From an uncultured Candidatus Peribacteria bacterium (lineage in GTDB: Bacteria > Patescibacteriota > Gracilibacteria > UBA1369 > PNNO01): a DNA stretch of 39,117 nucleotides. This document shows, one piece after another, positions 5,269-39,117 of the stretch. The translations under genes and the position numbers were made by a program. The notes beneath the pieces were generated by a model. That model searched no databases, was not told the DNA's origin, and saw only the letters and a list, made by a program, of their open reading frames with translations. The stretch's first letter is position 1. The number at the start of each line of letters is the position of its first letter. The DNA lies in contig CAYFUK010000002.1 in assembly GCA_964346325.1 (NCBI GenBank), positions 1 to 39,117 on the forward strand, given 5' to 3'.

Positions 5269-6212
5269 ATATCATGGAAATAAAGTATTTTTAATACTGC
5301 ATAAATAATAAAAGCCACTATTAATAATGCAGATTCTCTTTTTCGAAGTTTTTCTTTATATCTGAATAAAACCAAAACCAAAACAGATAAAATCAATAAA
5401 GCGGGTATATCGAATATTATTATTTCTCTGCTGATTTTAAGTTCCGCAATTACAGCCGCTGCTCCTATGGGAATCAGTGTATCAAAAATATTACTTCCGA
5501 TAAGATTACCAACTGCAATTTCTCCGGCCTTTTTTCTTATGGCAGTAATCGAAATTGCAAGTTCAGGCAGGCTTGTGCCCAGGCCGAGTAGCAAAACACC
5601 TATTAATGATTGCGAAAGATTGAATTTTTCACTTAGAGCTACGGCGTTATCCAATGTTAGATTTGAGGCTCCGTATAATAAGGCAAACCCGCCAAGCAGA
5701 GAAAGCGTTGACCATAGAATATGAAGCTTTGGCGGTAAAATAACTCTCTCTTTAACTTTTTCTTCTCTGTATAAGCTGATAACATAAAAAATATAAATTA
5801 TTATAAGTATCAAACCTTCGATTCTTGTGATATCTCCGTTAAAACTTACAAGAAAAAGCAAAACCGTAGATGTGATTAAAACAAGTCCGTCTCTGTAAAT
5901 TTGTTTTTTTGTTAATTTGAGTACGGCAAATAAACCGACTATCCCCATTGTTAGTCCGATTTGTCCGAAATTGCTTCCAATAACATCACCCACAATTATT
6001 CCTGAAGTTTCTGTTCCTCCCAGCCTGTTAAAGGCGCCCTGAATATTTATAAAAAGTTCGGGCAGATCACTACCGAAAGAAAGTATGGTGAGGCCGAGAA
6101 TCAGGTTTGATATTTTATAATGCTTGCCAATATTCAAAGCCCCTCTTGTAACGAGTTCAGCTCCGATTAAAAGTCCGGATATTCCCAGAATCAGAAGTAA
6201 TGTTTCTGTCAT
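5265..6212 (-). CDS. Ca2+/cation antiporter (CaCA family, YrbG-like Na+/Ca2+ exchanger)
   Basis: Polytopic membrane protein carrying the two alpha-repeat signatures GSDLPELFINI and GTSLPELAISI. Confidence 0.85.
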   Translation of the reverse strand: MTETLLLILGISGLLIGAELVTRGALNIGKHYKISNLILGLTILSFGSDLPELFINIQGAFNRLGGTETSGIIVGDVIGSNFGQIGLTMGIVGLFAVLKLTKKQIYRDGLVLITSTVLLFLVSFNGDITRIEGLILIIIYIFYVISLYREEKVKERVILPPKLHILWSTLSLLGGFALLYGASNLTLDNAVALSEKFNLSQSLIGVLLLGLGTSLPELAISITAIRKKAGEIAVGNLIGSNIFDTLIPIGAAAVIAELKISREIIIFDIPALLILSVLVLVLFRYKEKLRKRESALLIVAFIIYAVLKILYFHDI

Positions 6213-6243
6213 ATTTTAATAATAACATGAAAACCGCTTTGTT

Positions 6244-6271
6244 TTGTAAATATAATAAGTTGTTGTATAAT
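6244..6271 (+). promoter_or_regulatory. Putative promoter (TTGTAA-16 nt-TATAAT) for the SLH protein gene
   Basis: Hexamers read directly from the sequence, 29 nt upstream of the ATG at 6300. Confidence 0.35.
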
Positions 6272-6299
6272 TTTCACCAAGTACCAATAACCCGATGAA

Positions 6300-8483
6300 A
6301 TGAAAAAAATAAGTATGCTTTTTATTATGGCAGGCTTCTTTATTAGTTCAGTTACGGTAAATGCTGCATTAATAACATCAGAAGATACACCTCCGCCATT
6401 AATGAATTTATGGGCTGCTGACGATAATTATCAAACCGCTTTGGCATGGGCCTTTGAGAATAATGTTCTTACAGGCGACGGAACAACAGGTGACATTAGA
6501 CCAACAGATTGTGTGAAAAGAGCTGAAATATTAAAAATGCTTTATAATGTGCTTAAGATTGAAACCGACGGTGCGCAGGCAGAGCTTTTTTCAGACACTT
6601 ATGCGGATCAGTGGTACGCTGATTATGTAAAAAAAGCACGAGAAAAAAACACTGTTAAAGGTTACCCGGATGGAACTTTCAGACCCGCACAATGTGTGAA
6701 CAGGGTTGAAGCTTTAAAGATGGCTCTTTTGGAATTTCCCAATATAAATGCCGAAAGTGTAGCTTTAAATAGTTATGCCGATGTTTCTCCGGAGGAGTGG
6801 TATTACCAGTATGCCAGTTATGCTATTTCAAATAATTTTGTTGGATTGAAGCATACAACCCGGACCCCTGATTATACAAAAATGAATTATTTTCCCGGGG
6901 ATTCAATGACCAGAGAAGAATTTGCTGAAATGCTATACAGGTTAAAAACAGTTCAGGATAATGGTTTGATTGGTTATGATTCTTCTTATGGCCCTGAAAA
7001 CGTTATTACAACCACTGTAAAGGATTATAATTTGGAACCGGAAGAATTTTTTGATTATGAAACCCCATTGTTCGCAGTTTTGGATACAAGAAACGAAGGT
7101 CTTGTAAGTATATTGGATGGATATCTGAATCAATCTCCCGCCGGTGATGCCGAAGGTTTTATTGAAGTGGCACTTGAGGATTTAACAGATGAGTTGTTAA
7201 AAGCAAATTTGAATTATGAAGATGATCTGGCTCCTGCTTTTGAAGGTGGTTTTGAACTTATGTATGGTCAGAATTTACTAATAACGGTAAGCAATTCTAC
7301 CGCTCTAAATTCGGTTATTGATAAAATGGCTGAACTGGATGATTATTCAAAATCGAATTTATTCGGTTTTAACACTTTTACTAACGAAAAAGAGCAAATT
7401 TATTTAGCTTATACAGATGATGTATTGGTTGCATGGCCCAGTTTTTCAGCAAGATATCTTTCACTTCAGAGTATAAAAAACGATGAACAAAATCTTTTAC
7501 AAAATACTGATTATACACAATACGAAGATACAGTTCCTTATCCGAATGTTGGAACCTTTTACTTTAATATGACAACAACAGGCGAGTCGGGTATTTTTGC
7601 ATTGGTTCCGGATACTGAAGGATTAAAATTCCATTATAGAATGGAAGGTTATGGAAACAGTGCATCAAAAGTTCCATATATGTATCAAAATCTACCTGCA
7701 AACAATATTTTGCTTTATGGAGAAAATTACGGCCTTGCTGACAGAACAACTTCTCTTGGTTATGACACTATCACTGAATTGAAAAATGAAGGAATTATAG
7801 TTAGTGATGGTGAATGGCTTAATAAGGGTTTCGCTTTATTAATACAGGATACGGGGTCTCTGATTCCGGGAATTTCATATTATTTTGACGCAGACGGATA
7901 TTTACCACAGGCTGAAGATGACCTGGAAGCATTTAACGGTTTGGTTGACCAAATGATTACTGAAATGCAGGCTGAAGATGCTGATTTAGCTAATTTGATA
8001 AATAAAGACACGGTAAATTTTGACGGTGCGAATTTGTATCGTGTGACAATTGACATTGCATCGCTTCCTCGGGAGGAACTTGATGAATTAGCTGTATTTG
8101 CTGACTTTTTCACAACACCGCTCGAATTTTATTATGGAATTACCAGTGATGATTATGTGGTACTTGCATTATATTCAGGTTTTGATTCCGTATATGGTCA
8201 GGTTCCGGCTATTTCCGAAGATCGGAATATTGCCGAAGGCATGAATTATCTTGAAGATTATTCAAATGGTATGAGCTATGTTTCTGTAGCCAATATGGTT
8301 AATTATATTGACGAATTGGTCCTGGCAATTGAAGAAAGCACCGAACCAATGTCTGTTGATACCAAAGAATCATATAATGAATTTATGTCATATTTTGATA
8401 TCGTAGAATATATTATAACAGGCGAAAAAGAGTTTGAGGATTTTGCCGGTGGTTTAATGTTTGTAAAAATGAATTCAGAATAG
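6300..8483 (+). CDS. Secreted S-layer-homology (SLH) domain protein with a large acidic C-terminal region of unknown function
   Basis: Signal peptide MKKISMLFIMAGFFISSVTVNA. Three SLH-like repeats follow, e.g. FSDTYADQWYADYVKKAREKNTVKGYPDGTFRPAQCVNRVEALKM. The next ~500 aa are D/E/Y-rich with no motif I recognise. Confidence 0.85.
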   Translation: MKKISMLFIMAGFFISSVTVNAALITSEDTPPPLMNLWAADDNYQTALAWAFENNVLTGDGTTGDIRPTDCVKRAEILKMLYNVLKIETDGAQAELFSDTYADQWYADYVKKAREKNTVKGYPDGTFRPAQCVNRVEALKMALLEFPNINAESVALNSYADVSPEEWYYQYASYAISNNFVGLKHTTRTPDYTKMNYFPGDSMTREEFAEMLYRLKTVQDNGLIGYDSSYGPENVITTTVKDYNLEPEEFFDYETPLFAVLDTRNEGLVSILDGYLNQSPAGDAEGFIEVALEDLTDELLKANLNYEDDLAPAFEGGFELMYGQNLLITVSNSTALNSVIDKMAELDDYSKSNLFGFNTFTNEKEQIYLAYTDDVLVAWPSFSARYLSLQSIKNDEQNLLQNTDYTQYEDTVPYPNVGTFYFNMTTTGESGIFALVPDTEGLKFHYRMEGYGNSASKVPYMYQNLPANNILLYGENYGLADRTTSLGYDTITELKNEGIIVSDGEWLNKGFALLIQDTGSLIPGISYYFDADGYLPQAEDDLEAFNGLVDQMITEMQAEDADLANLINKDTVNFDGANLYRVTIDIASLPREELDELAVFADFFTTPLEFYYGITSDDYVVLALYSGFDSVYGQVPAISEDRNIAEGMNYLEDYSNGMSYVSVANMVNYIDELVLAIEESTEPMSVDTKESYNEFMSYFDIVEYIITGEKEFEDFAGGLMFVKMNSE

Positions 8484-8936
8484 ATTTATAACTCCCGTTA
8501 TACCGAGTGTAATAAGAGTTGCGGCAATAATTAATCCCATAGATATATAGCTGATTGCTTTCCAGTATTTAATGCCGAATAAAAAGGCTACCAAACTTCC
8601 TGTCCAGGCACCGCTTCCGGGTAATGGTATGGAAACAAATAAAATAAGGAATATGGGTCCGTATTTTTCTATAGCGTCTTTATGTTTGTCATGAGTTCTT
8701 TTATATAATTTGTTAAAGAATTGTTCAAAAAATGCGATATGACGCGATAAAAATTCAGAAATGGGTTCAAGTACCCAAAGTATAAAAAATGTAGGTATTA
8801 AATTGCCTATCAATGCATATATAAACGTGGTTTCAGCGGGAAGATTAAGTATAAAGCCTAAAGGAATCGCTCCGCGCAGTTCCGTTACAGGCAGCATTGC
8901 AGAAAAAAACACTAATAATTCAGGGGGTATGTTCAA
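8475..8936 (-). CDS. Small integral membrane protein, COG2426 / 'small multidrug export'-like family
   Basis: 153 aa with four predicted TM helices. The N-terminal motif LPVTELRGAIPLG is as I remember it for this family. The family assignment is from memory. Confidence 0.55.
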   Translation of the reverse strand: MNIPPELLVFFSAMLPVTELRGAIPLGFILNLPAETTFIYALIGNLIPTFFILWVLEPISEFLSRHIAFFEQFFNKLYKRTHDKHKDAIEKYGPIFLILFVSIPLPGSGAWTGSLVAFLFGIKYWKAISYISMGLIIAATLITLGITGVINLF

Positions 8937-9150
8937 AAGTTTTATACTTATTTAATAATTCAAACTACTTATTGTTTTATCACAGGGGAAAGCAAAAGCC
9001 AAGTATTATTTATGTATACATTTGTTATACAATAATGTGTCAATTGTTCAACATAAATGTAATTAGTTGGAAAGTGGCTTTATATAAGCAAGTTTTGACT
9101 ACTTCTTTTACATCGGGAGCACAAATTTTATACTAAAAATTTTAATTTTA

Positions 9151-19315: not shown

Positions 19316-21772
19316 TTATTCCGTATAAAGTACTGTTATATATAAGCTGCTCCATTCATTCTGCGCAATGCCGATTCCGATTTTTTTCCAATTTTCAAGC
19401 AATATGTCGCTATCCAGTATTAATTTGTTAAATAAAGAATTCAATGTTCCTTCTTTTAAAATATATGCTTTGCCCTGATTTGTTACTCCGCTGTTTTGAA
19501 CTTCATCAATCAGGTTTATACCAGAAGGGGAGATAAAAGAAAAGAAATTATCTTCTATCATTTTATTCGACCAATCTCGTGCGATATCAACTAAAGCTGA
19601 ATTGACAGTTAAATTATTAATGCGTTCATTATTGATTTTATCAAGCAGCTGATTTTCAAAATTCTGCAGATCATCTGCATCCCATAAATTATGTGAAAAC
19701 TCCTGAACAACCATCATGTCACCGAGACCGTCAAGCTCTATTCCCAGGCCGAGACTTTCCCAATTCGGATTCAGTATGTTTTCACGATGAATCGCGCTTC
19801 GCATTAAAGCCTGATGCGCAAAATATACACTCGGTGCATGCGCCAGATTCTCACCAACATTTGTTTTTATATTAAGGTCTTTTCTTCTTGTATCAGGATT
19901 TCCTCCATCAGCATCTATATGTGAAAAAAACATTCTTTCCACCATGTTTAGAGCATAATTCTGCGCAAGAGTGTTGAGGTCGGATTTTAATGAAACACCG
20001 CTTAATCCGTGAACTGCACGTTCTACATTTATATAATTAAGAAGCTCCCGCCTTTTGGAATCGAGGTCGAGTTTATAAGTTTCTTCGTAAGGGTCCTGTA
20101 AATCAAAAAAGTCAGGTATTAAAGGTATAATATCTCCTATATAAATGGGGATATTTAAAACAGCGCTGCCTCCCTGATTATTGATTTCCAGAATATATAC
20201 TCCTTCGGTTCGGGGACTGTAAGTAAAGTTAAATGACGAACCCGCGGAAATTACTTCGTTGCCATAATAACTCAGCAAATTGTTGTCGGTTTTTATCTCG
20301 AATGAATCGGTTAATCCATCCGGTTTTATTACGGCCCCTTTATTAAATATATTTTCCTGCGTTGTTCCCGAAACAAATATAGGTTCATTTGAAGAAAGTA
20401 TTTCAGGTATATTGGAATATTTTATTGAATCATCAAGAGATAATCTGAAGTTGTGAGTAACAGCGTCAAAAGAATCCGTATTGCTTTGGGTCCATTCCGA
20501 TTCAAGCTCAATCGGAGCTAAAGATGATGCTTTTGCTCCGAAAATTTTCCAATTAACGCTTCCTTCTTCAAAATTTTTAAAATCTTTATAAAAAATATTC
20601 AATGAATCTTTATCTCTTATTAAATATGAATGTACAGTGCTGTTTTGATAAAAATATATTCTGAAAACATTGTTACCATTCGGATCCCAATCAGTAGTAG
20701 TATTATCATTTTCAAAATTTATTCGCAGATTTGTCGGTTTGCCCGGATTTTGAGTTTCACCTTCTAAAGGAATTCCATCCAAAACAGTAATTTCAGCAAC
20801 ATTGCTTTCTCCCGAAAGGCCGGGAATTATTCCAAGCTGGTATTTGCCGGCTTTTCTGAAAACCAAAGGGATCTCAAAATTTTCACCTTCTGTTTCTCCG
20901 GGCATATGAGTAAATACTGTGCTTTCTCCGTTTTCTTTTGCAAAAAATGCAAAAATAGAATCATAATTGTTGTTTTCAGTTAGCCTGCCTTCAACCATAT
21001 ATACTTCGTTTTTGTAAAAAGTATTCGGCATTTCCTTATCAAGTTCTATTTTATTAAAAAAAGTTGTGTTTATTGTTTCAAAGCCGGCAGGTGTCTCAAC
21101 TTCATTAACGTCGTCAATAATATCTTCGGCCGTCCGGAAAGGCTCATAAAGAATTACCTGTTTAACAATACTTTGATATACAATTTCCGCCATATAAGCC
21201 CGCGTGATTTCTTTTCCGGGCTTCAGATAATCTTTCTCTTCAATTAACAAGCCGTTTTCTTTTGCAAAATGCACATAGGGCGAATACCAACTAAAACGGT
21301 ATGTGTCTTTGTATGCCGCTTCGGGAACCTCCGCCAAAGCAAGCATATCCCATTTTTGAACCTCGCCGAGTATTTTTATGGCTTCAACCTTATTGATTGG
21401 ATTTAAAGGCCTGAAAGTATTATCGGGATAACCCTTTACCCAACCTTCTTCTTTTGCTTTTCGTAAGTAAGGAATATACCACCGGTTTTCATCAACATCG
21501 GTAAAACCGGTAGGTTTTTCAGTATCAAGAGGAACATCCGTTCCTTCAAGTACAATTTTTAAAAATTCAACTCTGTTAATAAGATTGTCGGGTCTGAACG
21601 TATTATCACCGTATCCTTCAACAATATTATTTGATTGAAGATATGAAATGGAATCGCTATTGGGGTGCGTATACGGAACGTCACTAAAAGTTGAGGCTTT
21701 TACTTCAGGTACCGCAATTAACAGCGATATAATTATAATAAAACCTAAAATTTTGCTGATTTTCTTTTTCAT
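19316..21772 (-). CDS. Secreted SLH-domain protein with two C-terminal CAP/SCP (YkwD-like) domains
   Basis: Signal peptide MKKKISKILGFIIIISLLIAVPEVKA. Three SLH repeats follow (FSDVPYTHPN...EGYGDNTFRP; FTDVDENRWY...KGYPDNTFRP; a third is degenerate). A ~350-aa beta-rich middle precedes two CAP-like units (LNYINVERAVHGL...FFSHIDADG...ENLA...HRENILNPNW and a second INNERINNL...FFSFISPSG...). Confidence 0.85.
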   Translation of the reverse strand: MKKKISKILGFIIIISLLIAVPEVKASTFSDVPYTHPNSDSISYLQSNNIVEGYGDNTFRPDNLINRVEFLKIVLEGTDVPLDTEKPTGFTDVDENRWYIPYLRKAKEEGWVKGYPDNTFRPLNPINKVEAIKILGEVQKWDMLALAEVPEAAYKDTYRFSWYSPYVHFAKENGLLIEEKDYLKPGKEITRAYMAEIVYQSIVKQVILYEPFRTAEDIIDDVNEVETPAGFETINTTFFNKIELDKEMPNTFYKNEVYMVEGRLTENNNYDSIFAFFAKENGESTVFTHMPGETEGENFEIPLVFRKAGKYQLGIIPGLSGESNVAEITVLDGIPLEGETQNPGKPTNLRINFENDNTTTDWDPNGNNVFRIYFYQNSTVHSYLIRDKDSLNIFYKDFKNFEEGSVNWKIFGAKASSLAPIELESEWTQSNTDSFDAVTHNFRLSLDDSIKYSNIPEILSSNEPIFVSGTTQENIFNKGAVIKPDGLTDSFEIKTDNNLLSYYGNEVISAGSSFNFTYSPRTEGVYILEINNQGGSAVLNIPIYIGDIIPLIPDFFDLQDPYEETYKLDLDSKRRELLNYINVERAVHGLSGVSLKSDLNTLAQNYALNMVERMFFSHIDADGGNPDTRRKDLNIKTNVGENLAHAPSVYFAHQALMRSAIHRENILNPNWESLGLGIELDGLGDMMVVQEFSHNLWDADDLQNFENQLLDKINNERINNLTVNSALVDIARDWSNKMIEDNFFSFISPSGINLIDEVQNSGVTNQGKAYILKEGTLNSLFNKLILDSDILLENWKKIGIGIAQNEWSSLYITVLYTE

Positions 21773-21883: not shown

Positions 21884-22903
21884 ATGAAAGTTATTTCAAA
21901 AGCACTACTCTCTGCACTGGGGATTACAACAATTATATTTGCCGGTGGATGTGCGCAGGAAGGCCTTCCGGCAGGAATGTCACCTGAAGATGTAATCAGA
22001 GAAGCTTTACTGAATCAGACCGAATACACCGAGGCTGTATTTGAAGTAAAAGCTGACGCTGATCTTAAAGGAGAGGTGGATGGAGAAGAAAATTCTCTTG
22101 ACGGAAAATTTTCTCTTAGCGGGTCTTCAAATTCGGAAACCGAAGAAATGAGTGTTGTTATTGATGTAAATGCTGAAATGAACGGAGAAAGCTTTGCAGG
22201 TAAAATTGAATCGAGAACAACAAGTGATGGTGTATTCATTAGGATTAATAATATAGATGTATCCGAGGAAGAAACTCAGGAACTTGTTGAATTGATGTTG
22301 GAAGACTATTTGGATCAATGGGTGAAACTTACATTTATTATGCCTGATGAACTTATTGAATCGGGTTACATGGACGTTGATTACGAAGAGGGTGATACAT
22401 TGCCTTTCAAAAACATCGAATATGTTGGAACCGAAGATGTACTTGGTTTAAACAGTTACCACTTTACAGCTGAAATTGATGAAGAGGTTATGCTTGATGT
22501 GATGCAGGGTGAGGATAGTTCGGATGCTGAACAATTCTTTGAGGCAGCTGATATTACAGGTGATGTATATGTCGCTGTAGATAAAATGGTTATGACAGGC
22601 TTTGGAGGAGTTGTAACTTTGGATGATCCCGAAATGAACGGTGTTGTTAATTTGACATTCAAAATAAATCCTACCAAATCTGCAAGTGTTGATACTCCAA
22701 AATACGAAAAAGAATTAAATGAAGAAGATATTATGGGATTGATGTTTGGTGGGGCAATGATGTCGGATCCCTCGATGATGATGGATGAATCTACGCAGGA
22801 AGGTGTTGAAATGCCCGAGGGGGCGGAAATGCAAGGTCTCCCATCGGTTGAAATGCCCGAAGGGGCTATGGAAGAAGCAATGGATGAAGCTGCAAATCAG
22901 TAG
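21884..22903 (+). CDS. Acidic lipoprotein with a methionine-rich C-terminal tail
   Basis: Lipobox ...TTIIFAGG-C at residue 22. The body alternates beta-like segments, possibly a LolA/LppX-like fold (guess). The last 56 aa contain 12 Met, including a duplicated VEMPEGA. Confidence 0.75.
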   Translation: MKVISKALLSALGITTIIFAGGCAQEGLPAGMSPEDVIREALLNQTEYTEAVFEVKADADLKGEVDGEENSLDGKFSLSGSSNSETEEMSVVIDVNAEMNGESFAGKIESRTTSDGVFIRINNIDVSEEETQELVELMLEDYLDQWVKLTFIMPDELIESGYMDVDYEEGDTLPFKNIEYVGTEDVLGLNSYHFTAEIDEEVMLDVMQGEDSSDAEQFFEAADITGDVYVAVDKMVMTGFGGVVTLDDPEMNGVVNLTFKINPTKSASVDTPKYEKELNEEDIMGLMFGGAMMSDPSMMMDESTQEGVEMPEGAEMQGLPSVEMPEGAMEEAMDEAANQ

Positions 22904-26459: not shown

Positions 26460-28721
26460 TTAAGCGGCCAGTTCTTCTTCAACATATTCCGCTGCGGCAG
26501 ACAAAACCTGTTCAGCCTCTTCCGGTTTTAATCCATTAATTCTTTTGGCTATACTTTTAGCCAATTTTGTTTTTCTTGTATCAAGTTGATCTTTTACTTC
26601 ATTTGTTTTAAGTTTTCTTCCACTTAGGGAATCATGGAATTGTATATCTGAAAGATTCTGATTAGCTCCCGTTGCATCTATTTGCTGTCTTAATTTTCGG
26701 CTTTCAGCTTTGTTTTCCTGCCCGAAACCGGACAAGTCTATATTTCTTACCGCTTTTAATTCACCGTTTTTATCAAGAATTTGTTTACCTTGGCTTTTCT
26801 CGTAAACTTTTTGATGAACCCTTTTATCAAAAGAACCGTCACTTAAGTGGGAAGTCTGCTTGGCTTTATCCTGGACTCCGCTGTTTCTTAATATATTCTC
26901 TTCCTGATCCTGAAGAACTTTTTGTGAAATTTGTATTTGTTTAAGCTCTTCCTGTGCTTTTTCCGATTGAACCTGATTTTCAACAGCCGTTAAAATATCT
27001 TCATCCATTAAACCATCCATTGTTTCCATATCATCTTTTAGTTCTTTTCTCTTTTTTAAACTGTATTCATTATCTGGATGAAGTTTTAATACATAGTTGT
27101 GTTTATCGATACATCTTTCATATTCCCCCTGCGCTTCAAGTTTATCAGCTTCTTCATGAAGTTCATTTATAATTTCCCGGATGTCATCACTCTCAAGTGC
27201 CAAGGGCCTTTCTGTTTTTTCCGTTTCTTCAGTATCTTTTTTTTCTGAATTTTCCTGATCTTCTTTTTTGTTTTTGCTTTCGTAAAGTATTGCCTCTCGA
27301 TATATTTTTAACCTGGCTTTGTGCCCGCGTTCATAAAATGAACCATATCTTTTTTGTGTTTCATTATTCAGTTTTTCAAAATCTTCCAACAGTTCCCGTC
27401 TGACTTTCATCGAAGTTAAAATATTTCTGCATAAATTGCTCCTTTCTGCAAGTGTAATTCCGGTATATAATTCAATATACCGTGATGCTGTTTTTTTACT
27501 TATTGACTTATTTTTAAGCGCTTCTTTAATGGTTTTATCAAAAGGTTTAACAAGTTTTAACTCAGCATTCATTTGATTGAGCATTTGTTCTTTTTCTTCA
27601 AACTTTAATTTTTCCCAGTCCTTTTCATTATATCCTTTTATTTCAACTTTTTTTCTGGTTTCGGGATTTGTTAAGTATAAATTTTTTTTAGCTTTTTTAT
27701 AATCTTTTGTTAATTTTTCTTCCGCTTCAATAGATTTTGGTAATTGTTCAAGCCACATTGCTTTTTGAGCAACATCACTTAAGTTTAAAAAATCAACAAT
27801 AGCAAAACGTTTTGAATTCTGAGACATTATTTCGGGTTTTACAGAATTCACATCTTTTATATATTTCTGTTCGTTTCCCGCGTCCAGTTTTTCCAGGAAT
27901 GTCCGTTTTTCTTTTAAACCGACTTTTAAAAATTTTTCATCATTTTTATATTTGGCGGGAAGCTTATCGTAAATATCAACCAGTTCTTTACGCGGTTTAA
28001 CAATTTCAGCTTCAAAAACCCTGAGCCATCTTTCCTGTTCTTCAACTGTTTGATCCCTGAATTCTTTGAGGTATTGGGTGGGATTGTGAAAAAGCCTCAG
28101 ATGTGCGTTTATTTTGTTTTCATAAGTTTTCTCGTTTTTTTCCATGCTTTCGATTTCTTTCACTTTATCCTTCATTTCGCTTCTTCGAAGTTTAACAACC
28201 TCGGTTTTGTCCATTTTTTCAAGTAGTCTTTTTCTTAATCTGACTCTTTCGGAAATATCGGTATTTATTAAACCGAGTGCCTTTTGTTTTTCTTGATGAG
28301 ATTGTTGAGCAAACCATTCAATATATTCTTTTGCGGTATCAAGTCCGCGTGATTGATCAATTGTGAATGCAGCTTCTTTGTTAGACATTACTTTATCGGT
28401 ATAACCTTCAACCATACCTTTGATTTGCCCCTGCTGCTGTTCAAATTCTTGTTTTAGTTGCTGCATTTCTTTAGTTGAAATCGTTTTTCGTTCTGCTTCC
28501 TGAAGTCGTTTTTCCCATTGTCTTTTATCCTCATCCGTAAAAATATTACTATCAGCCAGTTTTGCTTTTAGCTTTGATTGTTCTTGCATAACTTGTTGTG
28601 CTTCCTTTGTGTCTTCGTAAGTTCTATCTAATGTACCATTCGCAGCTAGATCCACGTTTTCGGGCTTGTCAATATCTCCTAAGAAGGTCAGCTTTGATTC
28701 AACAAAAAAGATCTTTTTCAT
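26460..28721 (-). CDS. Large Lys/Glu/Gln-rich helical-repeat (coiled-coil) protein, function unknown; no signal peptide or TM segment
   Basis: Uninterrupted 2.26-kb ORF, with ATG at 28721 (MKKIFF) or 28730. It has charged heptad-like composition throughout, a recurring F-x3-[ST]-x2-[EA]-[QKR]-x2-W-L module and a TPR-like stretch QGEYERCIDKHNYVLKLHPDNEYSLKK. Confidence 0.75.
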   Translation of the reverse strand: MKKIFFVESKLTFLGDIDKPENVDLAANGTLDRTYEDTKEAQQVMQEQSKLKAKLADSNIFTDEDKRQWEKRLQEAERKTISTKEMQQLKQEFEQQQGQIKGMVEGYTDKVMSNKEAAFTIDQSRGLDTAKEYIEWFAQQSHQEKQKALGLINTDISERVRLRKRLLEKMDKTEVVKLRRSEMKDKVKEIESMEKNEKTYENKINAHLRLFHNPTQYLKEFRDQTVEEQERWLRVFEAEIVKPRKELVDIYDKLPAKYKNDEKFLKVGLKEKRTFLEKLDAGNEQKYIKDVNSVKPEIMSQNSKRFAIVDFLNLSDVAQKAMWLEQLPKSIEAEEKLTKDYKKAKKNLYLTNPETRKKVEIKGYNEKDWEKLKFEEKEQMLNQMNAELKLVKPFDKTIKEALKNKSISKKTASRYIELYTGITLAERSNLCRNILTSMKVRRELLEDFEKLNNETQKRYGSFYERGHKARLKIYREAILYESKNKKEDQENSEKKDTEETEKTERPLALESDDIREIINELHEEADKLEAQGEYERCIDKHNYVLKLHPDNEYSLKKRKELKDDMETMDGLMDEDILTAVENQVQSEKAQEELKQIQISQKVLQDQEENILRNSGVQDKAKQTSHLSDGSFDKRVHQKVYEKSQGKQILDKNGELKAVRNIDLSGFGQENKAESRKLRQQIDATGANQNLSDIQFHDSLSGRKLKTNEVKDQLDTRKTKLAKSIAKRINGLKPEEAEQVLSAAAEYVEEELAA

Positions 28722-28754
28722 TATTATCATTATTTATTTATGTATGTGCGGATA

Positions 28755-31217
28755 TTATATTGAACACGCTGAGAATCCGCAAGATAAACAAAGCATACAT
28801 CCTTCACCGATTTGAAGCCTTGTATTGCATTCAGGACAAACCTTTCCTTCCATAATTTCCCGTTTGCTGAGAACTTTTTCTTCAACAGCAACGCCTGCCG
28901 AGCCAACGGCTTTATGTTCTCTCGAAGGCTGAATGGGCGGTAGTGTAAATTCTTCAGCTATTATAGTATCGTTATTATCATAGCTTGCGGAAATTTGTGT
29001 TTGATCGGAATTGCCTTCGGTATTTTCATCAGGTGATACAATCGGAAGACTTACCTCCCGTGCTGATGGTTCTTTTATTGAACCGTTGTTTCTTTCATGG
29101 TTAACATCAGGTTTTTTTGGCTCGCTATTTTTCGGAGATTCAGAGTCTTTTTCAGTTTCCTTTTTTTCCTGATTTACCTTTCCGATATTTAGTACCTGTG
29201 ATTCACGGCTTTTGTCTCTGTAAATAGTCACACCTTTGCAACCAAGCCCGAAAGCAAGTTTGTATGCATCTTCAATATCCTGTATTTGTGCATGAGATGG
29301 GAAGTTGATAGTTTTTGAAACAGAAGAATCAACATGTTTCTGAAAAGCCGCCTGCATTTTTATATGCCATTCCGGTTTTATATCCTGTGCAGTAACAAAT
29401 ATATCCTTTACATCCCGGGGAACTTCATCAAAATCCTGAACCGACCCTACTTTTGCTATTTCTCTCATCAAATCTTTAGAAAAGAAGCCTCTTTCTCTGG
29501 CTATTTTTTCAAAAAATTTATTTGTATAAACAAGCTCGGTACCATCCATTACATTTTTGATAAATGATATTGCAAAGTTTGGTTCCAGTCCTCCCGAAGC
29601 TTCAGCCAGCATTCCGATTGTTCCCGTTGGTGCGACCGTCGTAACACAGGTGTTTCTCATTTTGATTCCGTTTTTTTCATGTACGGAACCTTCGTATGCA
29701 GGGAATGTGCCTCGTATTTCCGCTAAAATTTGTGATTTTTTTTGTGCTTCATCATTAATGAATTTCATTATTTTTTCTCCAAAGGATATTCCTTCATCAG
29801 AATCATATTTTATACCAAGCTGATAACAAACATCCGCAAATCCCATTAATCCGAGGCCTATTTTCCTTGTTTTGCGGGTCATATCAGCAATTTTTTGTAT
29901 GGGATAATGATTCACATCAATGACATTATCCAAAAAGTGTGTTGCAAGATGAACAACCTCTCTGAACCTTTCCCAGTCAAGATCGGATTTGTCTTCCAGG
30001 ACAAACTTATTTACATTTATTGAACCTAAATTACAGCTTTCATGACCAAGTAACGGTTGTTCACCGCATGGATTTGTCGCTTCAATATCTCCCAAATGAG
30101 GACATGTATTGTTTCTGTTGATTTCATCGATAAAGATCAAGCCCGGATCACCATTCTTCCATGCATTTGAAAGAATAATATCCCAAACCATTCTTGCCTT
30201 TAATTTTTTAATCGGTTTTTGATCCCTTGGATTAATAATTTCATATTCCGTGTCCTGTTCAAGTGCTTCCATAAATTTATCCGTAACTGCAACAGATATG
30301 TTGAAATTCTGAAGAGTTTTCATGTCAGCTTTCATCTGAATAAAATCAAAAATATCCGGATGATCGATACGAAGTATGCCCATATTTGCTCCCCGTCGTT
30401 TTCCGCCCTGCTTAATTACATCAGTTGCCGCATCAAAAACCTTCATGAATGATACGGGACCGCTTGAAACACCGGTTGTTGAATGAACTATATCGTTGGA
30501 AGGTCTCAGTCTTGAAAATGAAAATCCTGTTCCGCCTCCGCTTTTGTGAATTAAAGCGGCATCTTTTAAAGATTCAAATATTCCTTCCATGGAATCTTCA
30601 ACCGGTAGCACAAAACAAGCAGAAAGCTGCCCCAGTTCGGTTCCCGCATTCATTAAAGTAGGGGAGTTGGGCATGAATTCGAGATTTTTCATTATATTTA
30701 AAAATTTTTCTTCCATTTCTTTTTCATTGCCTCCTTCATAATTTTCTTCGGCTTTCGCAACTGCTCCGGCTACTCTTTTCAACAAATCTTCGGGTGTTTC
30801 CATAACATTACCTCCATCATCTTTAAGAAGATATCGTTTTTCCAACACTTTAAGTGCGTTTGTTGAAAAGTTTAACGAAGAGTCTCCCTTACCTTTACCT
30901 AAGATCGCTTCTTTTTCTTCACGTTCATCGGCTCTTTTCTGCCTCCATAAAATATAGGCTTTTGCTGTTTTTGCATGTCCGCCTTCAATAAGTATTTTTT
31001 CAACCAGATCCTGTATTTGTTCCACTGTTGGAATTTCTTCCGCATTTTTGAAGAAAACTTCCAGTACGGCGGATACCTGGTTTGATATCTTTTGTGATTC
31101 TTCGATATTGCCGCCTCCTACAGATTGAGCGGCTTTCCAGATAGCTTGGGTGATTCTGTCTTGATCAAAATCAACTATGCGGCCATCGCGTTTTTGGATT
31201 TTTTTGATTGGGGACAT
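28755..31217 (-). CDS. nrdJ: Adenosylcobalamin-dependent (class II) ribonucleotide reductase with an N-terminal ATP-cone and a C-terminal Cys-rich zinc-ribbon tail
   Basis: ATP-cone IKKIQKRDGRIVDFDQDRITQAIWKAAQ. Catalytic core NSPTLMNAG...LSACFVL...GGGTGFSFSRLRP...ATNPCGEQPLLGHESCNLGSIN...TVAPTGT. Tail CPECNTRLQIGEGCMLCLSCGFSACSI. Confidence 0.95.
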   Translation of the reverse strand: MSPIKKIQKRDGRIVDFDQDRITQAIWKAAQSVGGGNIEESQKISNQVSAVLEVFFKNAEEIPTVEQIQDLVEKILIEGGHAKTAKAYILWRQKRADEREEKEAILGKGKGDSSLNFSTNALKVLEKRYLLKDDGGNVMETPEDLLKRVAGAVAKAEENYEGGNEKEMEEKFLNIMKNLEFMPNSPTLMNAGTELGQLSACFVLPVEDSMEGIFESLKDAALIHKSGGGTGFSFSRLRPSNDIVHSTTGVSSGPVSFMKVFDAATDVIKQGGKRRGANMGILRIDHPDIFDFIQMKADMKTLQNFNISVAVTDKFMEALEQDTEYEIINPRDQKPIKKLKARMVWDIILSNAWKNGDPGLIFIDEINRNNTCPHLGDIEATNPCGEQPLLGHESCNLGSINVNKFVLEDKSDLDWERFREVVHLATHFLDNVIDVNHYPIQKIADMTRKTRKIGLGLMGFADVCYQLGIKYDSDEGISFGEKIMKFINDEAQKKSQILAEIRGTFPAYEGSVHEKNGIKMRNTCVTTVAPTGTIGMLAEASGGLEPNFAISFIKNVMDGTELVYTNKFFEKIARERGFFSKDLMREIAKVGSVQDFDEVPRDVKDIFVTAQDIKPEWHIKMQAAFQKHVDSSVSKTINFPSHAQIQDIEDAYKLAFGLGCKGVTIYRDKSRESQVLNIGKVNQEKKETEKDSESPKNSEPKKPDVNHERNNGSIKEPSAREVSLPIVSPDENTEGNSDQTQISASYDNNDTIIAEEFTLPPIQPSREHKAVGSAGVAVEEKVLSKREIMEGKVCPECNTRLQIGEGCMLCLSCGFSACSI

Positions 31218-36965: not shown

Positions 36966-36994
36966 TTGATAGGGATATGATTATATGATATAAT
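36966..36994 (+). promoter_or_regulatory. Promoter for the C1q/collagen-like ORF (TTGATA-17 nt-TATAAT)
   Basis: TTGATA at 36966-36971, a 17-nt spacer and consensus TATAAT at 36989-36994, 25 nt upstream of the proposed GTG start. Confidence 0.55.
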
Positions 36995-37019
36995 ATTATG
37001 ATAAATATATGAGAAAATT

Positions 37020-39117
37020 GTGTTAAAAAGATTTGTTAAGAAAATCAGGTTTATATCGATAGTAATCAGTTTGCTTGTTCTGCAGATAAATTCAGTAAGT
37101 GCTCAGGGAATTTTGATTATTAATTCCGATTATATTGAAGAAGACAATACTTATATATTTGACGCCGATGATTCCGGGGGTGACATTGAATTAAGATTCG
37201 GAGCATCGTTAGGAGAATATCTTAAATGGGATTCTTTGAATAACACTTTTAAATTCAGTGATGATCTGGATTTGTCAGGCAATCAGCTTACTAATTTCAG
37301 AATTGATAATCTGGCTTCGGCACCTGCATGTGATTCTTTATCAATCGGAAGAGCTTATTTTAATACAAGCGAAAATAATTCATATATCTGTAATGGTACG
37401 GATTGGGAGCAAATTGATGCGGGCGGTGGAGTTAGCAGCAATTTAGCGGCTGTTCAGGCAAGACGGACTTCCAACTTTACACTTTCAAATCAAGATCAAT
37501 GGTATGATGTGCCACTTGATTCTACCGATGTAGAAACAGATAACACGGTTATAGAACATGATAATACAAATACGGAAAGAATTAATATTAAGGAAGATGG
37601 CGTTTATAGAATTACGTATCATATAGATGCGCTCGATACAACAACTCCGCATGGAATTCAGGCCAGGCTCAGGATAAATAATTCCAACGATGTCCCCGGT
37701 TCTTTTTTGGAAACAACCAATTATACGGACGAGCATCAGGTTACCCCTGCATCAGTTATCGATGAATTGAGCGGCGGAGATTACATAGCTTTGCAGGTTC
37801 AAAGATTAACATCAAATACCGTAATAGGCGAACCTCTTATAACCGTTGTTAAACTTGAAGGGGTAAAAGGTGAAAAAGGAGACAAAGGTGATCCGGGTTC
37901 GGCGGGCACCGGAACTGACAGTGAAACTTTTACAATAGATCAGGACGATACCGGAGGTGATTTAAAACTCCAGTTCGGTAACAGCCTGAATGAATATTTA
38001 CAATGGAATGATACTGCACAGGCTTTTATTTTAAGTGATGATCTTATATTGAATTTTAATGAATTAAAGCAGTTTAAGATAGAAAACTCGGCAACGGCGC
38101 TTACTTGTAATAGTGGTTATACAGGCCGCGCTTATTATAATACTGCTAATTTTCATACTTATATTTGTGATGGAAGTACATGGGTTCAGATAGATAATAC
38201 AGCTTCCGTAACCGATACATTGGCGGGAGTACAGGCGCGAAGAACAACAAATTTTACACTGACAAATCAAAATCAGTGGTATGATATACCTTTAGATTCA
38301 ACTGATGTGGAAACAGACAGCACGGTTATTGAACATAATAATACAAATACCGAACGCATTGATATTAAAGCGGATGGATTATATCGATTAACATATCATC
38401 TCGATGCTGATGATAGTGGTGTGACTCATGATATTCAGGGTAAACTGAGGTTAAATAATACAACCGATATTCCGGGTTCATTTTTGGAATCAACAAATTA
38501 TCAAGGCGAACATTCACCTTTAACAGGTGCAATAATTGCAGAATTATCAACCGGTGATTATGTAACATTGCAGGCACAACGTTTAACTGCAAACACAATC
38601 ATAAATGAAACCTTACTGACAGTTGTTAAAATGGATGGTATTAAAGGTGATGAAGGTATTCCGGGGCCTACTTATACTCCAACGGTCGGATTGTTTTATG
38701 ATAGTTCAGGTGGTGTTGATTTAAATGTATCAACATCCGTGGCAATACCTTTTAATCAGGAAGTGAGAAAAGATAGTGGTTACACACATGACAATGTAAC
38801 AAATAATTCACGAATCACCTTGGATGAACCGGGTTGGTATGAGGTAAGTTATAATGTTTCAACGGAAAATCAAACTATGGCCAGAAAAAATATCAGATGT
38901 GCAATTGTTTTGGATGGATCAACACTTTCAGTACCTTCCGATTCATATTCTTATAGCAGAAATACAACTAATGAATGGGCTACCAATTCCGCGACAACAT
39001 TAATCCAGACTACCTCAAGTAATCAGTATTATGAAATATTCTGCCGGGGTGAAGGTTCGGGAATTGACAGTGCTTCCGCGAATACGATTGCCGATCAATC
39101 TTGGACAATTGTTGAAA
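37020..39117 (+). CDS. Secreted modular protein (partial, >699 aa, continues past the window end): 2 x [Cys-pair module + C1q/TNF-like jelly-roll + short collagen G-X-Y run] followed by a third C1q-like head
   Basis: The frame is open from 37005 to the window end, so the ORF is not in the supplied track. GTG at 37020 gives VLKRFVKKIRFISIVISLLVLQINSVSA|QG, a signal peptide. G-X-Y runs are GVKGEKGDKGDPGSAGTG (37860-37913) and GIKGDEGIPGP (38637-38669). The jelly-roll-like segments follow the strand pattern of C1q heads, e.g. AGVQARRTTNFTLTNQNQWYDIPLDSTDVETDSTVIEHNNTNTERIDIKADGLYRLTYHL...GDYVTLQAQRL...LLTVVKMDG. Confidence 0.85.
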   Translation, partial: MLKRFVKKIRFISIVISLLVLQINSVSAQGILIINSDYIEEDNTYIFDADDSGGDIELRFGASLGEYLKWDSLNNTFKFSDDLDLSGNQLTNFRIDNLASAPACDSLSIGRAYFNTSENNSYICNGTDWEQIDAGGGVSSNLAAVQARRTSNFTLSNQDQWYDVPLDSTDVETDNTVIEHDNTNTERINIKEDGVYRITYHIDALDTTTPHGIQARLRINNSNDVPGSFLETTNYTDEHQVTPASVIDELSGGDYIALQVQRLTSNTVIGEPLITVVKLEGVKGEKGDKGDPGSAGTGTDSETFTIDQDDTGGDLKLQFGNSLNEYLQWNDTAQAFILSDDLILNFNELKQFKIENSATALTCNSGYTGRAYYNTANFHTYICDGSTWVQIDNTASVTDTLAGVQARRTTNFTLTNQNQWYDIPLDSTDVETDSTVIEHNNTNTERIDIKADGLYRLTYHLDADDSGVTHDIQGKLRLNNTTDIPGSFLESTNYQGEHSPLTGAIIAELSTGDYVTLQAQRLTANTIINETLLTVVKMDGIKGDEGIPGPTYTPTVGLFYDSSGGVDLNVSTSVAIPFNQEVRKDSGYTHDNVTNNSRITLDEPGWYEVSYNVSTENQTMARKNIRCAIVLDGSTLSVPSDSYSYSRNTTNEWATNSATTLIQTTSSNQYYEIFCRGEGSGIDSASANTIADQSWTIVE
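37137..38690 (+). repeat. Two in-frame tandem copies of a 777-nt (259-codon) unit inside the modular ORF
   Basis: Landmarks recur at exactly +777 nt: GAT..GGT of D-x-G-G at 37170 and 37947, GT(T/A)CAGGC at 37452 and 38229, and the G-X-Y run at 37860 and 38637. The copies have diverged, with substitutions of all classes and many at third positions. Confidence 0.85.

What the first reader, a model, noticed from the sequence alone, without database searches (positions are those of the whole stretch)
37020..39117. Secreted 'beads-on-a-string' ORF with tandem C1q/TNF-like heads separated by short collagen triplets; missing from the ORF track
Seen in the sequence: a >2.1-kb reading frame runs off the window end. 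It is preceded by a near-consensus promoter and begins with a Sec-type signal peptide. It contains two 259-aa tandem units. Each unit has a module with two conserved Cys 20 residues apart (PACDSLSIGRAYFNTSENNSYICNG / LTCNSGYTGRAYYNTANFHTYICDG). Next comes a ~140-aa segment whose strand pattern mirrors C1q/TNF jelly-rolls, then a short G-X-Y run. A third, divergent C1q-like segment directly follows the second collagen run. Established knowledge: collagen triplets followed by a C1q-like head is the architecture of the Bacillus exosporium fibre BclA and of many phage tail fibres, and both elements trimerise. Inference: this could be a trimeric surface fibre or adhesin carrying several stacked C1q-like heads. 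I do not know of a described bacterial protein with that arrangement. In a reduced-genome, possibly host-attached bacterium it would be a candidate host-contact structure.
Basis: partly seen in the sequence, partly recalled or inferred. Interest (0 to 1): 0.75.

Follow-up and report, generated by a model that had tools for sequence, protein, structure and literature searches.

The report
Secreted fibre with three C1q-like heads
A small-genome (Patescibacteria/Peregrinibacteria-like) bacterium encodes a secreted 701-residue protein made of three C1q/BclA-type heads, two short collagen runs and two copies of an undescribed stalk module. It belongs to a large unnamed family shared with viruses and is most likely a trimeric surface fibre with a swappable binding tip.

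Summary
Window 37020-39116 is one open frame of 699 codons. A 99.9%-identical contig shows the protein is 701 aa, so the window lacks only two codons and the stop.

The layout is signal peptide, N1, H1, (GXY)6, N2, H2, (GXY)4, H3.
- All three heads match Pfam BclA_C. The AlphaFold model (head pLDDT 83-96) matches C1q, cerebellin, TNF-family and BxpB/ExsFA jelly rolls.
- The N module (about 95 aa, with a covarying Cys pair) has no Pfam or PDB match, yet it hits 4,870 cluster representatives.

The arrangement is not unique: 69 of 114 homologues carry 2-4 heads. Of 135 internal heads, 125 are followed at once by a short KGE/KGD-rich GXY run. That head-then-collagen order is the reverse of BclA and C1q.

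Relatives fall into two groups:
- Peregrinibacteria, Gracilibacteria and other Patescibacteria, with a signal peptide and N modules.
- 58 IMG/VR viral contigs, none with an N module.

The gene sits at a conserved housekeeping locus where head number and tip type differ between genomes.

Best reading: a secreted homotrimeric fibre with conserved internal heads and a variable distal head. Trimer state, anchoring and ligand are untested. It is a new variant of a known kind.

The parts
36966..36994 (+). sigma-70-like promoter match TTGATA-17 nt-TATAAT with an extended -10 TG, 26 nt upstream of the start codon
   Evidence: 11 of 12 positions. This is a consensus match only; the number of such sites in the region equals the shuffle expectation.
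37020..39116 (+). Fibre gene: 699 of 701 codons. The last 2 codons (K, K) and the stop lie just beyond the window end.
37020..37103 (+). Sec-type signal peptide, aa 1-28 (MLKRFVKKIRFISIVISLLVLQINSVSA|QG)
   Evidence: heuristic: 5 K/R, hydrophobic core, VSA|Q. The ortholog P0004 aligns from its ATG.
37104..37430 (+). N1 stalk module, aa 29-137, with the Cys104-Cys124 pair. No Pfam or PDB match.
37431..37859 (+). H1, an internal C1q/BclA_C-like jelly-roll head, aa 138-280
   Evidence: BclA_C 2e-8; pLDDT 88-96.
37860..37913 (+). Collagen-like run 1, aa 281-298: GVKGEKGDKGDPGSAGTG (6 triplets)
37914..38207 (+). N2 stalk module, aa 299-396, with the Cys363-Cys383 pair
38208..38636 (+). H2, the second internal C1q/BclA_C-like head, aa 397-539
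   Evidence: BclA_C 1e-6; C1q 0.012.
38637..38672 (+). Collagen-like run 2, aa 540-551: GIKGDEGIPGPT (4 triplets)
38673..39116 (+). H3 (T-type), the divergent terminal C1q/BclA_C-like head, aa 552-699 of 701, with the Cys627/Cys675 pair
   Evidence: BclA_C 9e-7.

Best explanation
The gene encodes a Sec-exported protein that assembles, chain-in-register, into a homotrimeric extracellular fibre on or around a Peregrinibacteria-like (Patescibacteria) cell.

Shown:
- The domain order is SP-N1-H1-(GXY)6-N2-H2-(GXY)4-H3.
- The three heads have the C1q/TNF/BclA-type jelly-roll fold.
- A family-wide rule holds: an internal head is followed immediately by a short KGE/KGD-rich collagen run, and a head closes the protein.

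Inferred:
- Each conserved internal head (H1, H2) trimerises and sets the register for the short triple helix that leaves its C-terminal strand. The heads would act as structural nodes, or clamps.
- The N modules, each stiffened by a disulfide, form the stalk.
- The more variable C-terminal head (H3) is the distal ligand-binding tip. Between related genomes it is exchanged by module shuffling at a conserved locus.
- The likely role is contact with another surface, such as a host cell, particle or polymer, in the manner of BclA nap filaments and viral fibres.
For: Domain identity:
- Pfam BclA_C gives E=5e-18 over 3 stretches, and C1q scores above its cut-off. Each head alone matches at 1e-6 to 2e-8.
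- The AF2 heads have pLDDT 83-96.
- Foldseek matches single heads to C1QL3 (TMt 0.82), Cbln1, EDA and BxpB/ExsFA (TMt 0.66-0.72).
- The head profile hits adiponectin and ExsFA/BxpB by sequence.

Collagen runs:
- 125 of 135 internal heads in 114 homologues are followed at once by at least 3 GXY triplets, with a mode of 5.
- The runs start G-[VI]-K-G-[DE], and 125 runs contain 103 KGE/KGD motifs. From my own knowledge, these are the most stabilising non-imino triplet pairs.
- G281, G284 and G287 are at least 90% conserved.

Export:
- The CPR homologues share a signal-peptide-like N-terminus. Two viral-type homologues inspected (P0030, P0035) lack it.
- All six Cys fall into three within-module pairs, and the pairs covary.

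Cellular rather than phage origin:
- The 39-kb window is entirely housekeeping or envelope genes.
- The GH1/DJ-1/IlvD/VanY-fibre synteny is conserved in 5 genomes.

Variable tip:
- At that conserved locus the architecture differs: N-H-c-N-H-c-T here, N-H-c-N-h in L002 and L005, N-H-c-T in L006.
- Internal heads are more conserved than terminal heads: 33% versus 21% mean pairwise identity, and higher in 89% of protein pairs.

Literature: Peribacteria are reported to carry strain-variable large exported proteins proposed to act in attachment (PMC4736985).
Against: - No multimer model or experiment was available, so trimerisation is inferred from family knowledge and the GXY pattern.
- The GXY runs are short (6 and 4 triplets), modelled at pLDDT below 50, and do not reach the Pfam Collagen threshold (E=1.6).
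- From my own knowledge, both termini of C1q/TNF jelly rolls lie at the base of the trimer. A head in mid-chain therefore cannot simply sit in line, and the real geometry (U-turns or side-mounted heads) is unknown.
- No anchoring device was found: no LPXTG, SLH domain or second hydrophobic segment. The protein could be released rather than surface-bound.
- The conservation contrast is biased. Homologues were retrieved by similarity to a query dominated by H-type heads, and the best of several internal heads was used.
- There is no expression or localisation data, and the host-contact role is purely contextual.
Confidence: 0.55

Rival explanations
1. Single-chain pseudo-trimer. The three heads of one polypeptide pack around a pseudo-threefold axis, like engineered single-chain C1q/TNF. 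This would give a monomeric globular lectin-like protein with N2 looped out, and the GXY runs would be mere linkers.
For: - The best PDB matches of the whole model are single-chain three-head constructs: 5kca (1.6e-16), 5hzf (TMt 0.50) and 4zch.
- Natural viral proteins of 373-425 aa align across the query's three heads and are about the size of three abutting heads: A0A6J5LW36 and two Hyperionvirus proteins.
- Omnitrophota proteins in L020/L021 show three heads with no spacers.
- The H2-H3 linker is only 12 aa.
Against: - Family members carry 1, 2, 3 or 4 heads, and 54 of 114 have two. Three-in-one packing is therefore not the family rule.
- The strict, conserved GXY run after internal heads has no purpose in a monomer, because one chain cannot make a triple helix from two separate runs.
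- The model has pTM 0.38 and about 24 A rmsd to the single-chain trimers, so the heads are not confidently packed.
- Any apparent H2/H3 packing could be the known artefact of homo-oligomer contacts being satisfied within one chain.
- H1 is separated from H2 by 116 aa.
Confidence: 0.1
2. Viral structural protein: a tail fibre or virion fibril of a prophage, tailocin or contractile injection system resident in the chromosome, not a cellular surface protein.
For: - H-type heads at 31-44% identity occur in 58 IMG/VR viral contigs, many with the same head-GXY-head layout.
- BFVD matches include Gordonia phage minor tail proteins, collagen-repeat phage proteins and a Mimivirus protein.
- The second half of the N module matches the N-terminus of Gordonia phage Clawz gp69, which RefSeq calls a 'tail fiber protein', at 41% identity.
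- phrog_35360 (tail fiber) matches at E=2.8e-4.
- C1q domains are documented as receptor-binding domains of eCIS fibres (PMC12923769).
Against: - No phage, tail or injection-system gene is present in the 39-kb window.
- Five related genomes keep the gene beside IlvD/VanY housekeeping genes.
- A Sec signal peptide is present; from my own knowledge this is unusual for virion proteins. Two viral-type homologues inspected lack it.
- The N module is present in most of the Patescibacteria loci (15 of 17) and in none of the 58 viral loci.
- The Clawz 'tail fiber' label is weak. GenBank calls the gene hypothetical, and it lies after the lysis genes.
Confidence: 0.07
3. A secreted trimeric fibre whose job is not adhesion. 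It could be a structural nap, a glycocalyx or envelope layer (as BclA forms the hair-like nap of the exosporium), or a soluble pattern-binding 'defence collagen'.
For: - It has the same domain evidence as the best explanation.
- N-X-S/T sequons are enriched: 19 against 11.2 +/- 2.8 in shuffles.
- Envelope-related neighbours are common: VanY here, and SLH+DPBB_1 in 4 related loci.
- A 1,425-aa multi-glycosyltransferase lies beside a viral relative in L038.
- No cell-anchoring motif was found.
Against: - Tip swapping at an orthologous locus is more typical of receptor-binding proteins than of bulk structural layers.
- This is a single-copy gene with no paralogue in the window.
- Nothing here distinguishes binding from barrier function directly.
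Confidence: 0.2

Closest known systems
BclA (Bacillus exosporium nap glycoprotein; Pfam BclA_C PF18573) and BclA-like proteins of Clostridioides and Pasteuria
   Same: The heads match the BclA_C profile and have the C1q/TNF-like jelly-roll fold. Collagen-type GXY repeats sit next to the head. The protein is extracellular and presumed to be a trimeric filament.
   Different: BclA has one head at the C-terminus, preceded by a long collagen region and an N-terminal exosporium-attachment domain. Here there are three heads. The collagen runs are 4-6 triplets long and follow the internal heads. The protein has a Sec signal peptide and two copies of an unrelated N module. The organism is a Patescibacterium, and from my own knowledge no spore formation has been reported for that group.
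BxpB/ExsFA exosporium proteins (PDB 8d02, 7r1m, 9h3d)
   Same: They are among the closest solved bacterial matches for a single head: TMt 0.66-0.72 and about 20% identity. The sequence profile hits them at E 0.005-0.04.
   Different: They are single-domain basal-layer proteins that anchor BclA. They have no collagen and no tandem heads.
Animal C1q-domain proteins, including tandem-head members (CTRP4 with two gC1q domains; mussel HcC1qDC6 with three, PMC5519582)
   Same: The fold is the same; C1QL3 gives TMt 0.82. More than one C1q head in a single chain has precedent.
   Different: In animal C1q, collagen VIII/X and adiponectin the collagen precedes the head. The tandem animal proteins lack intervening collagen and stalk modules. 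Sequence identity is only 9-19%.
Viral and contractile-injection-system fibres with collagen-like shafts and C1q/TNF-like receptor-binding heads (uncultured Caudovirales 'C1q domain-containing protein' A0A6J5LW36, Gordonia phage minor tail proteins, Mimivirus AB-566-O17 protein; eCIS fibres in PMC12923769)
   Same: They share homologous H-type heads at 31-44% identity. Many IMG/VR contigs have the same head-GXY-head-GXY-tip layout.
   Different: The viral versions lack the N module (0 of 58 loci). The two viral-type homologues inspected also lack the signal peptide. The viral proteins often carry very long collagen tracts. The window gene lies in a housekeeping chromosomal context.
Streptococcal collagen-like proteins Scl1/Scl2 (my own knowledge)
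   Same: The polarity is the same: a globular trimerising domain lies N-terminal to a charge-stabilised, hydroxyproline-free collagen helix rich in KGE/KGD.
   Different: The Scl V domain is helical rather than a jelly roll. The collagen is long, the protein is LPXTG-anchored, and there is a single globular domain.

Membership tests
BclA_C (Pfam PF18573) | Profile match at or above the curated whole-protein cut-off (38 bits) | tested here: met
   65.6 bits, E=5e-18, 3 stretches. Each head scanned alone scores 29-34.5 bits (E 1e-6 to 2e-8), below the cut-off on its own.
BclA_C (Pfam PF18573) | C1q/TNF-like 10-strand jelly-roll fold | tested here: met
   The AF2 heads have pLDDT 83-96. Foldseek gives TMt 0.65-0.82 to C1QL, Cbln1, Caprin-2 C1q, EDA and BxpB/ExsFA. 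This is a prediction, not a solved structure.
BclA-type exosporium filament | Long collagen-like region N-terminal to a single C-terminal head | tested here: not met
   The runs are 6 and 4 triplets long. 125 of 135 internal heads in the family are followed by GXY, and only 31 of 201 heads are preceded by it.
BclA-type exosporium filament | N-terminal exosporium-targeting domain and attachment to BxpB/ExsFA | not tested
   The N-terminus is a Sec-type signal peptide. No specific motif search was done, and no partner was identified.
C1q domain (Pfam PF00386) | Profile match at or above the cut-off (23.7 bits) | tested here: met
   26.1 bits, E=1e-5, which is marginal. Single heads score 14-16 bits.
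Collagen triple-helix repeat (Pfam PF01391) | Profile match; uninterrupted G-X-Y repeats | tested here: inconclusive
   The Pfam score is 9 bits against 27.2 (E=1.6), because the runs are shorter than the 60-residue model. Uninterrupted GXY of 6 and 4 triplets is conserved in position and composition across the family.
Trimeric C1q/TNF-superfamily assembly | Homotrimer around a threefold axis | not testable with these tools
   Only monomer AF2 was available, with no coordinates or PAE returned.
Phage tail fibre / receptor-binding protein | Encoded within a tail or baseplate gene module of a phage or prophage | tested here: not met
   The window and the syntenic loci carry housekeeping and envelope genes only.
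Phage tail fibre / receptor-binding protein | Profile match to annotated tail-fibre families | tested here: inconclusive
   phrog_35360 (tail fiber) matches at E=2.8e-4 with no significant stretch. The better PHROG hits have unknown function. Only Gordonia phage Clawz-type gp69 matches among 50,697 phage records, over aa 77-132.
Sec-exported protein (signal peptidase I substrate) | Positively charged n-region, hydrophobic h-region, small residues at -3/-1 | tested here: met
   5 K/R, a 12-residue hydropathy maximum of 2.73, and V-S-A|Q. This is my own heuristic script, not SignalP.

The most novel reading that the evidence does not exclude
Peregrinibacteria, Gracilibacteria and other Patescibacteria build their cell-contact fibres from the same kit that viruses use for virion fibres. 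The core of the kit would be an in-line C1q-type head that nucleates a short collagen helix on its C-terminal side, the reverse polarity to all characterised C1q/BclA collagens. A lineage-specific, structurally new stalk module (N) and interchangeable tip heads would then set partner specificity. This would define an undescribed class of modular 'head-clamp' fibres and give a concrete candidate for how these episymbionts recognise hosts.
Probability: 0.3. Interest if true: 0.65.

Novelty: new variant of a known kind. Interest (0 to 1): 0.5.

Why it matters
How candidate-phyla-radiation bacteria outside the Saccharibacteria recognise and hold on to partner cells is largely unknown. The searched literature held no paper on this protein family.

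This gene gives a tractable candidate. It is a 72-kDa secreted protein with confidently predicted heads. It sits at a conserved locus whose tip and head number vary between related genomes.

It also exposes three points of wider interest:
- A recurrent, uncharacterised design rule: a C1q-type head followed immediately by a 3-13-triplet collagen run. This matters for collagen folding and protein engineering, as a possible N-terminal-side trimerisation clamp.
- An unannotated stalk module of about 95 aa that matches thousands of proteins.
- Clear module sharing between Patescibacteria and viruses.

On the other side, the components themselves (BclA_C/C1q heads, bacterial collagen) are well known. 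No function has been shown.

Tried and rejected
- Direct sequence search of the whole protein against PDB found nothing meaningful; the best hit was a P450 at E=2.3.
- Tandem Repeats Finder and self-BLAST did not report the 259-aa repeat. It had to be shown by module-wise alignment.
- The first attempt to seed a genome scan with the full-length alignment failed for lack of conserved stretches. A head-only alignment worked.
- The N module alone gave no significant PDB fold match; the best was E=1.4. The nods to P2 gpV, HylP and the collagen XV/XVIII trimerisation domains are not significant and were not used.
- PHROGs and Pfam scans of neighbours in six viral contigs gave no tail or capsid hallmarks. 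They found only a peptidase, a papain-like protease, a collagen protein, a phosphoesterase, a weak sub-threshold ROS/MucR-type regulator match and a multi-glycosyltransferase. I therefore cannot say that the viral relatives are tail fibres.
- The prophage idea was rejected on context.
- Sortase, SLH or membrane anchoring was looked for and not found.
- There is no tRNA in the window and no paralogue of the fibre in the window.
Head-head packing and the position of the termini could therefore not be examined.
Full report
**1. The observation**

Translating window 37020-39116 (+) gives 699 codons without a stop. The frame opens after TAA at 37002, and GTG 37020 is the first start codon. The ORF is missing from the mechanical ORF list only because that tool drops ORFs that run off an end.

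A protein search found a virtually identical 701-aa protein, P0001, with a single T/S difference. It lies on a 6.4-kb microbial-mat contig (L001) that is 99.9% identical in DNA to the window tail, with 5 mismatches in 5,589 nt. There the gene was called from the same GTG and ends ...WTIVEKK-stop. The window therefore lacks only two codons and the stop, and the gene is not a fragment of something much larger.

A TTGATA-17-TATAAT site with an upstream TG lies at 36966-36994 and matches 11 of 12 positions. Such matches are no commoner in this AT-rich region than in shuffles.

The N-terminus (MLKRFVKKIRFISIVISLLVLQINSVSA|QG) has the three regions of a Sec signal peptide. The close homologues share them, and the syntenic ortholog P0004 aligns from its ATG. 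This was judged by my own heuristic, not SignalP.

**2. Anatomy**

Module-wise alignment gives this layout (aa):

| Module | Residues |
|---|---|
| Signal peptide | 1-28 |
| N1 | 29-137 |
| H1 | 138-280 |
| GVKGEKGDKGDPGSAGTG | 281-298 |
| N2 | 299-396 |
| H2 | 397-539 |
| GIKGDEGIPGPT | 540-551 |
| H3 | 552-701 |

N1/N2 are 48% identical, H1/H2 are 65% identical, and H3 is 26-32% identical to H1/H2. The repeat period is 259 aa.

The six cysteines form three within-module pairs: 104/124, 363/383 and 627/675. In an alignment of 37 N modules, the three sequences lacking one Cys also lack the other. In the terminal head, the pair is present together in 11 and absent together in 8 of 22 sequences. 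Both patterns fit disulfides in an exported protein.

**3. What the heads are**

- Pfam gives BclA_C at E=5e-18 over three stretches (65.6 bits, cut-off 38) and C1q at 26.1 bits (cut-off 23.7).
- Scanned separately, H1, H2 and H3 each match BclA_C, at 2e-8, 1e-6 and 9e-7.
- An AlphaFold2 model built on 44 sequences has mean pLDDT 78. The heads are at 83-96, while the linkers and GXY runs are below 50.
- Foldseek against the PDB matches individual heads to C1QL1/3 (TMt 0.82), Caprin-2 C1q, cerebellin, EDA, 4-1BBL, the Bacillus exosporium proteins BxpB/ExsFA (TMt 0.66-0.72, about 20% identity) and phage receptor-binding heads.
- The top whole-model hits are engineered single-chain three-head C1q, Cbln1 and TNF constructs.
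- A profile of H-type heads also finds adiponectin and ExsFA/BxpB by sequence, at E 0.001-0.04.

The jelly-roll claim is therefore supported by two independent lines.

**4. The N module**

The N module has no Pfam hit. Modelled alone, it reaches pLDDT 79, and about 94 for the disulfide-bearing three-stranded end. It has no significant PDB fold match; the best is E=1.4.

A profile search of 1.84 billion cluster representatives finds it in 4,870 proteins: 639 at E<=1e-10 and 85 at E<=1e-30. Its second half (Cys...GxxYYNT...YxCxGxxW) recurs up to 20 times in a single protein.

Among cultured phages, only Gordonia phage Clawz-type gp69 matches that half, at its N-terminus (41% identity). The 'tail fiber' label there comes from RefSeq only.

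**5. Family grammar**

I used HMMs built from the window's own modules on the 114 homologues.
- 54 homologues have two heads, 10 have three and 5 have four.
- Of 201 heads, 66 end the protein.
- Of the 135 internal heads, 125 are followed immediately by at least 3 GXY triplets. The mode is 5 and the range 3-13.
- Only 31 of 201 heads are preceded by GXY.
- The runs begin G-[VI]-K-G-[DE], and 125 runs hold 103 KGE/KGD motifs. G281, G284 and G287 are at least 90% conserved.

The conserved unit is thus head-then-short-collagen. This is the opposite order to BclA, C1q, adiponectin and collagen VIII/X.

**6. Who has it**

The window's class II ribonucleotide reductase is 77-81% identical to proteins named Patescibacteria or Candidatus Peregrinibacteria. 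It is 85% identical to one on a 1.37-Mb MAG chromosome.

A scan of one genome per species with the head profile returned 20 loci. Seventeen are Peregrinibacteria/Peribacteria, Gracilibacteria, Altimarinota, a 'Patescibacteria group' bacterium or the unnamed MAG L002. There is also one Zixiibacteriota locus, one Gemmatimonadota locus and two Omnitrophota loci.

IMG/VR viral contigs gave 58 further loci with heads 31-44% identical, many with H-c-H-c-tip layouts or very long collagen tracts. BFVD structure matches include a Mimivirus protein (3.5e-28), 373-425-aa proteins that align across the query's three heads and are about the size of three abutting heads, and Gordonia phage minor tail proteins.

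The N module separates the two groups. It is present in 15 of the 17 Patescibacteria-type loci and in none of the 58 viral loci. The close Patescibacteria homologues also share a signal-peptide-like N-terminus, which the two viral-type homologues I inspected (P0030, P0035) lack.

Neighbours in six viral contigs gave no tail hallmarks. I therefore do not claim that the viral relatives are tail fibres.

**7. Context**

Every sizeable ORF in the window that Pfam could classify is a housekeeping or envelope gene: HrcA, GAPDH, aldolase, FBPase, RsmH, MraY, two D-Ala-D-Ala carboxypeptidases, LytR, ComEC, RNR, DJ-1, GH1, IlvD and two SLH proteins. Two ORFs (756 aa and 339 aa) have no Pfam match. There is no phage gene.

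The GH1/DJ-1/IlvD/VanY-fibre arrangement recurs in L002, L003, L005 and L006. The fibre differs between them:
- N-H-c-N-H-c-T in the window.
- N-H-c-N-h in L002 and L005, with a different tip type (28% identity for the L002 protein P0004).
- N-H-c-T in L006.

N1 and N2 are distinct orthologous types. H2 is closer to the single head of P0002/P0004 (76%) than to its own H1 (65%). The extra head is therefore not a recent in-gene duplication.

Internal heads are more conserved than terminal heads: 33% against 21% mean pairwise identity, and higher in 89% of protein pairs. This comparison carries an ascertainment caveat.

**8. Interpretation**

The most economical model is a Sec-exported homotrimeric fibre. 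In it, the conserved internal heads act as trimerisation and registration nodes for the short charge-stabilised triple helices. The N modules form the stalk. The variable terminal head binds a ligand.

This fits the report that Peribacteria carry strain-variable large exported proteins proposed to act in attachment (PMC4736985).

What is not shown:
- The oligomeric state.
- The geometry. From my own knowledge, both termini of a C1q jelly roll lie at its base, so an in-line head poses a topological problem.
- How the fibre is retained. No LPXTG, SLH domain or second hydrophobic segment was found.
- The ligand.

Rivals are a single-chain pseudo-trimer, a resident viral fibre, and a non-adhesive nap or soluble lectin. 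They are weighed in the rival section.

**9. Novelty**

The parts are known: BclA_C/C1q heads, bacterial collagen, C1q heads on eCIS fibres (PMC12923769), and tandem C1q in animals (PMC5519582 and the CTRP4 papers).

I found no description of the following in four literature searches:
- the multi-head, head-then-collagen grammar;
- the N module;
- their concentration in Peregrinibacteria, Gracilibacteria and other Patescibacteria.

I rate this a new variant of a known kind, of moderate interest.

Noticed in passing
window 19316-21772 (-) and 6300-8483 (+): There are two large SLH-domain proteins. The first also carries a CAP/cysteine-rich secretory domain, so the organism appears to anchor proteins to a cell-wall polymer. 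The fibre itself has no SLH domain.
   Followed up: partly
window 26460-28730 (-) and 21884-22903 (+): ORFs of 756 aa and 339 aa have no Pfam match at E<=1e-3. They do not match the fibre's N or head profiles.
   Followed up: partly
window 37104-39116 (mature protein): N-X-S/T sequons are enriched: 19 observed against 11.2 +/- 2.8 in composition-preserving shuffles, with 0.6% of shuffles reaching 19. T, S and N make up 28% of residues. Glycosylation is possible but untested.
   Followed up: no
L001 5658-5843 and 5852-6436 (just downstream of the window end): Downstream of the fibre gene lie a 61-aa ORF and a Cys-rich ORF of at least 195 aa with many CxxC motifs, cut by the contig end. The Cys-rich ORF has no Pfam match.
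   Followed up: partly
L022/L023, L033, L064, L075 (IMG/VR contigs, those with recorded lengths 49-529 kb): The head-bearing ORFs become much longer if TGA is read as sense, for example 916 to 1,405 aa. These 'viral' contigs may be TGA-recoded phages of Gracilibacteria/Absconditabacteria or misassigned genomic DNA.
   Followed up: no
L038 1077-5351 (+), directly upstream of the collagen+head gene at 5403-8978: A 1,425-aa protein combines GT2, GT4 and GT9 glycosyltransferase domains with a methyltransferase domain. This suggests that the neighbouring collagen-like fibre is glycosylated.
   Followed up: no
L020 and L021 4957-9009 (Omnitrophota): 1,351-aa proteins carry three C1q-like heads directly abutting at the N-terminus (aa 36-481) with no collagen between them. 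They are natural candidates for single-chain pseudo-trimers.
   Followed up: no
P0026, P0036, P0040 (one 11,906-bp ENA contig); P0019 and P0060 (one 1.37-Mb Altimarinota chromosome): Several paralogous fibre genes occur on the same contig or genome, which suggests local gene families.
   Followed up: no
L002 10321-11337 (-), L004 4210-5364 (-), L009, L017: An SLH + DPBB_1 (RlpA-like lytic transglycosylase) gene recurs within a few kb of the fibre gene in four loci.
   Followed up: partly
window 28755-31217 (-): This is a B12-dependent class II ribonucleotide reductase with an ATP-cone. Several close homologues of about 1,115-1,160 aa carry intein domains (PF14528/PF14890), but the window's copy does not.
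   Followed up: no
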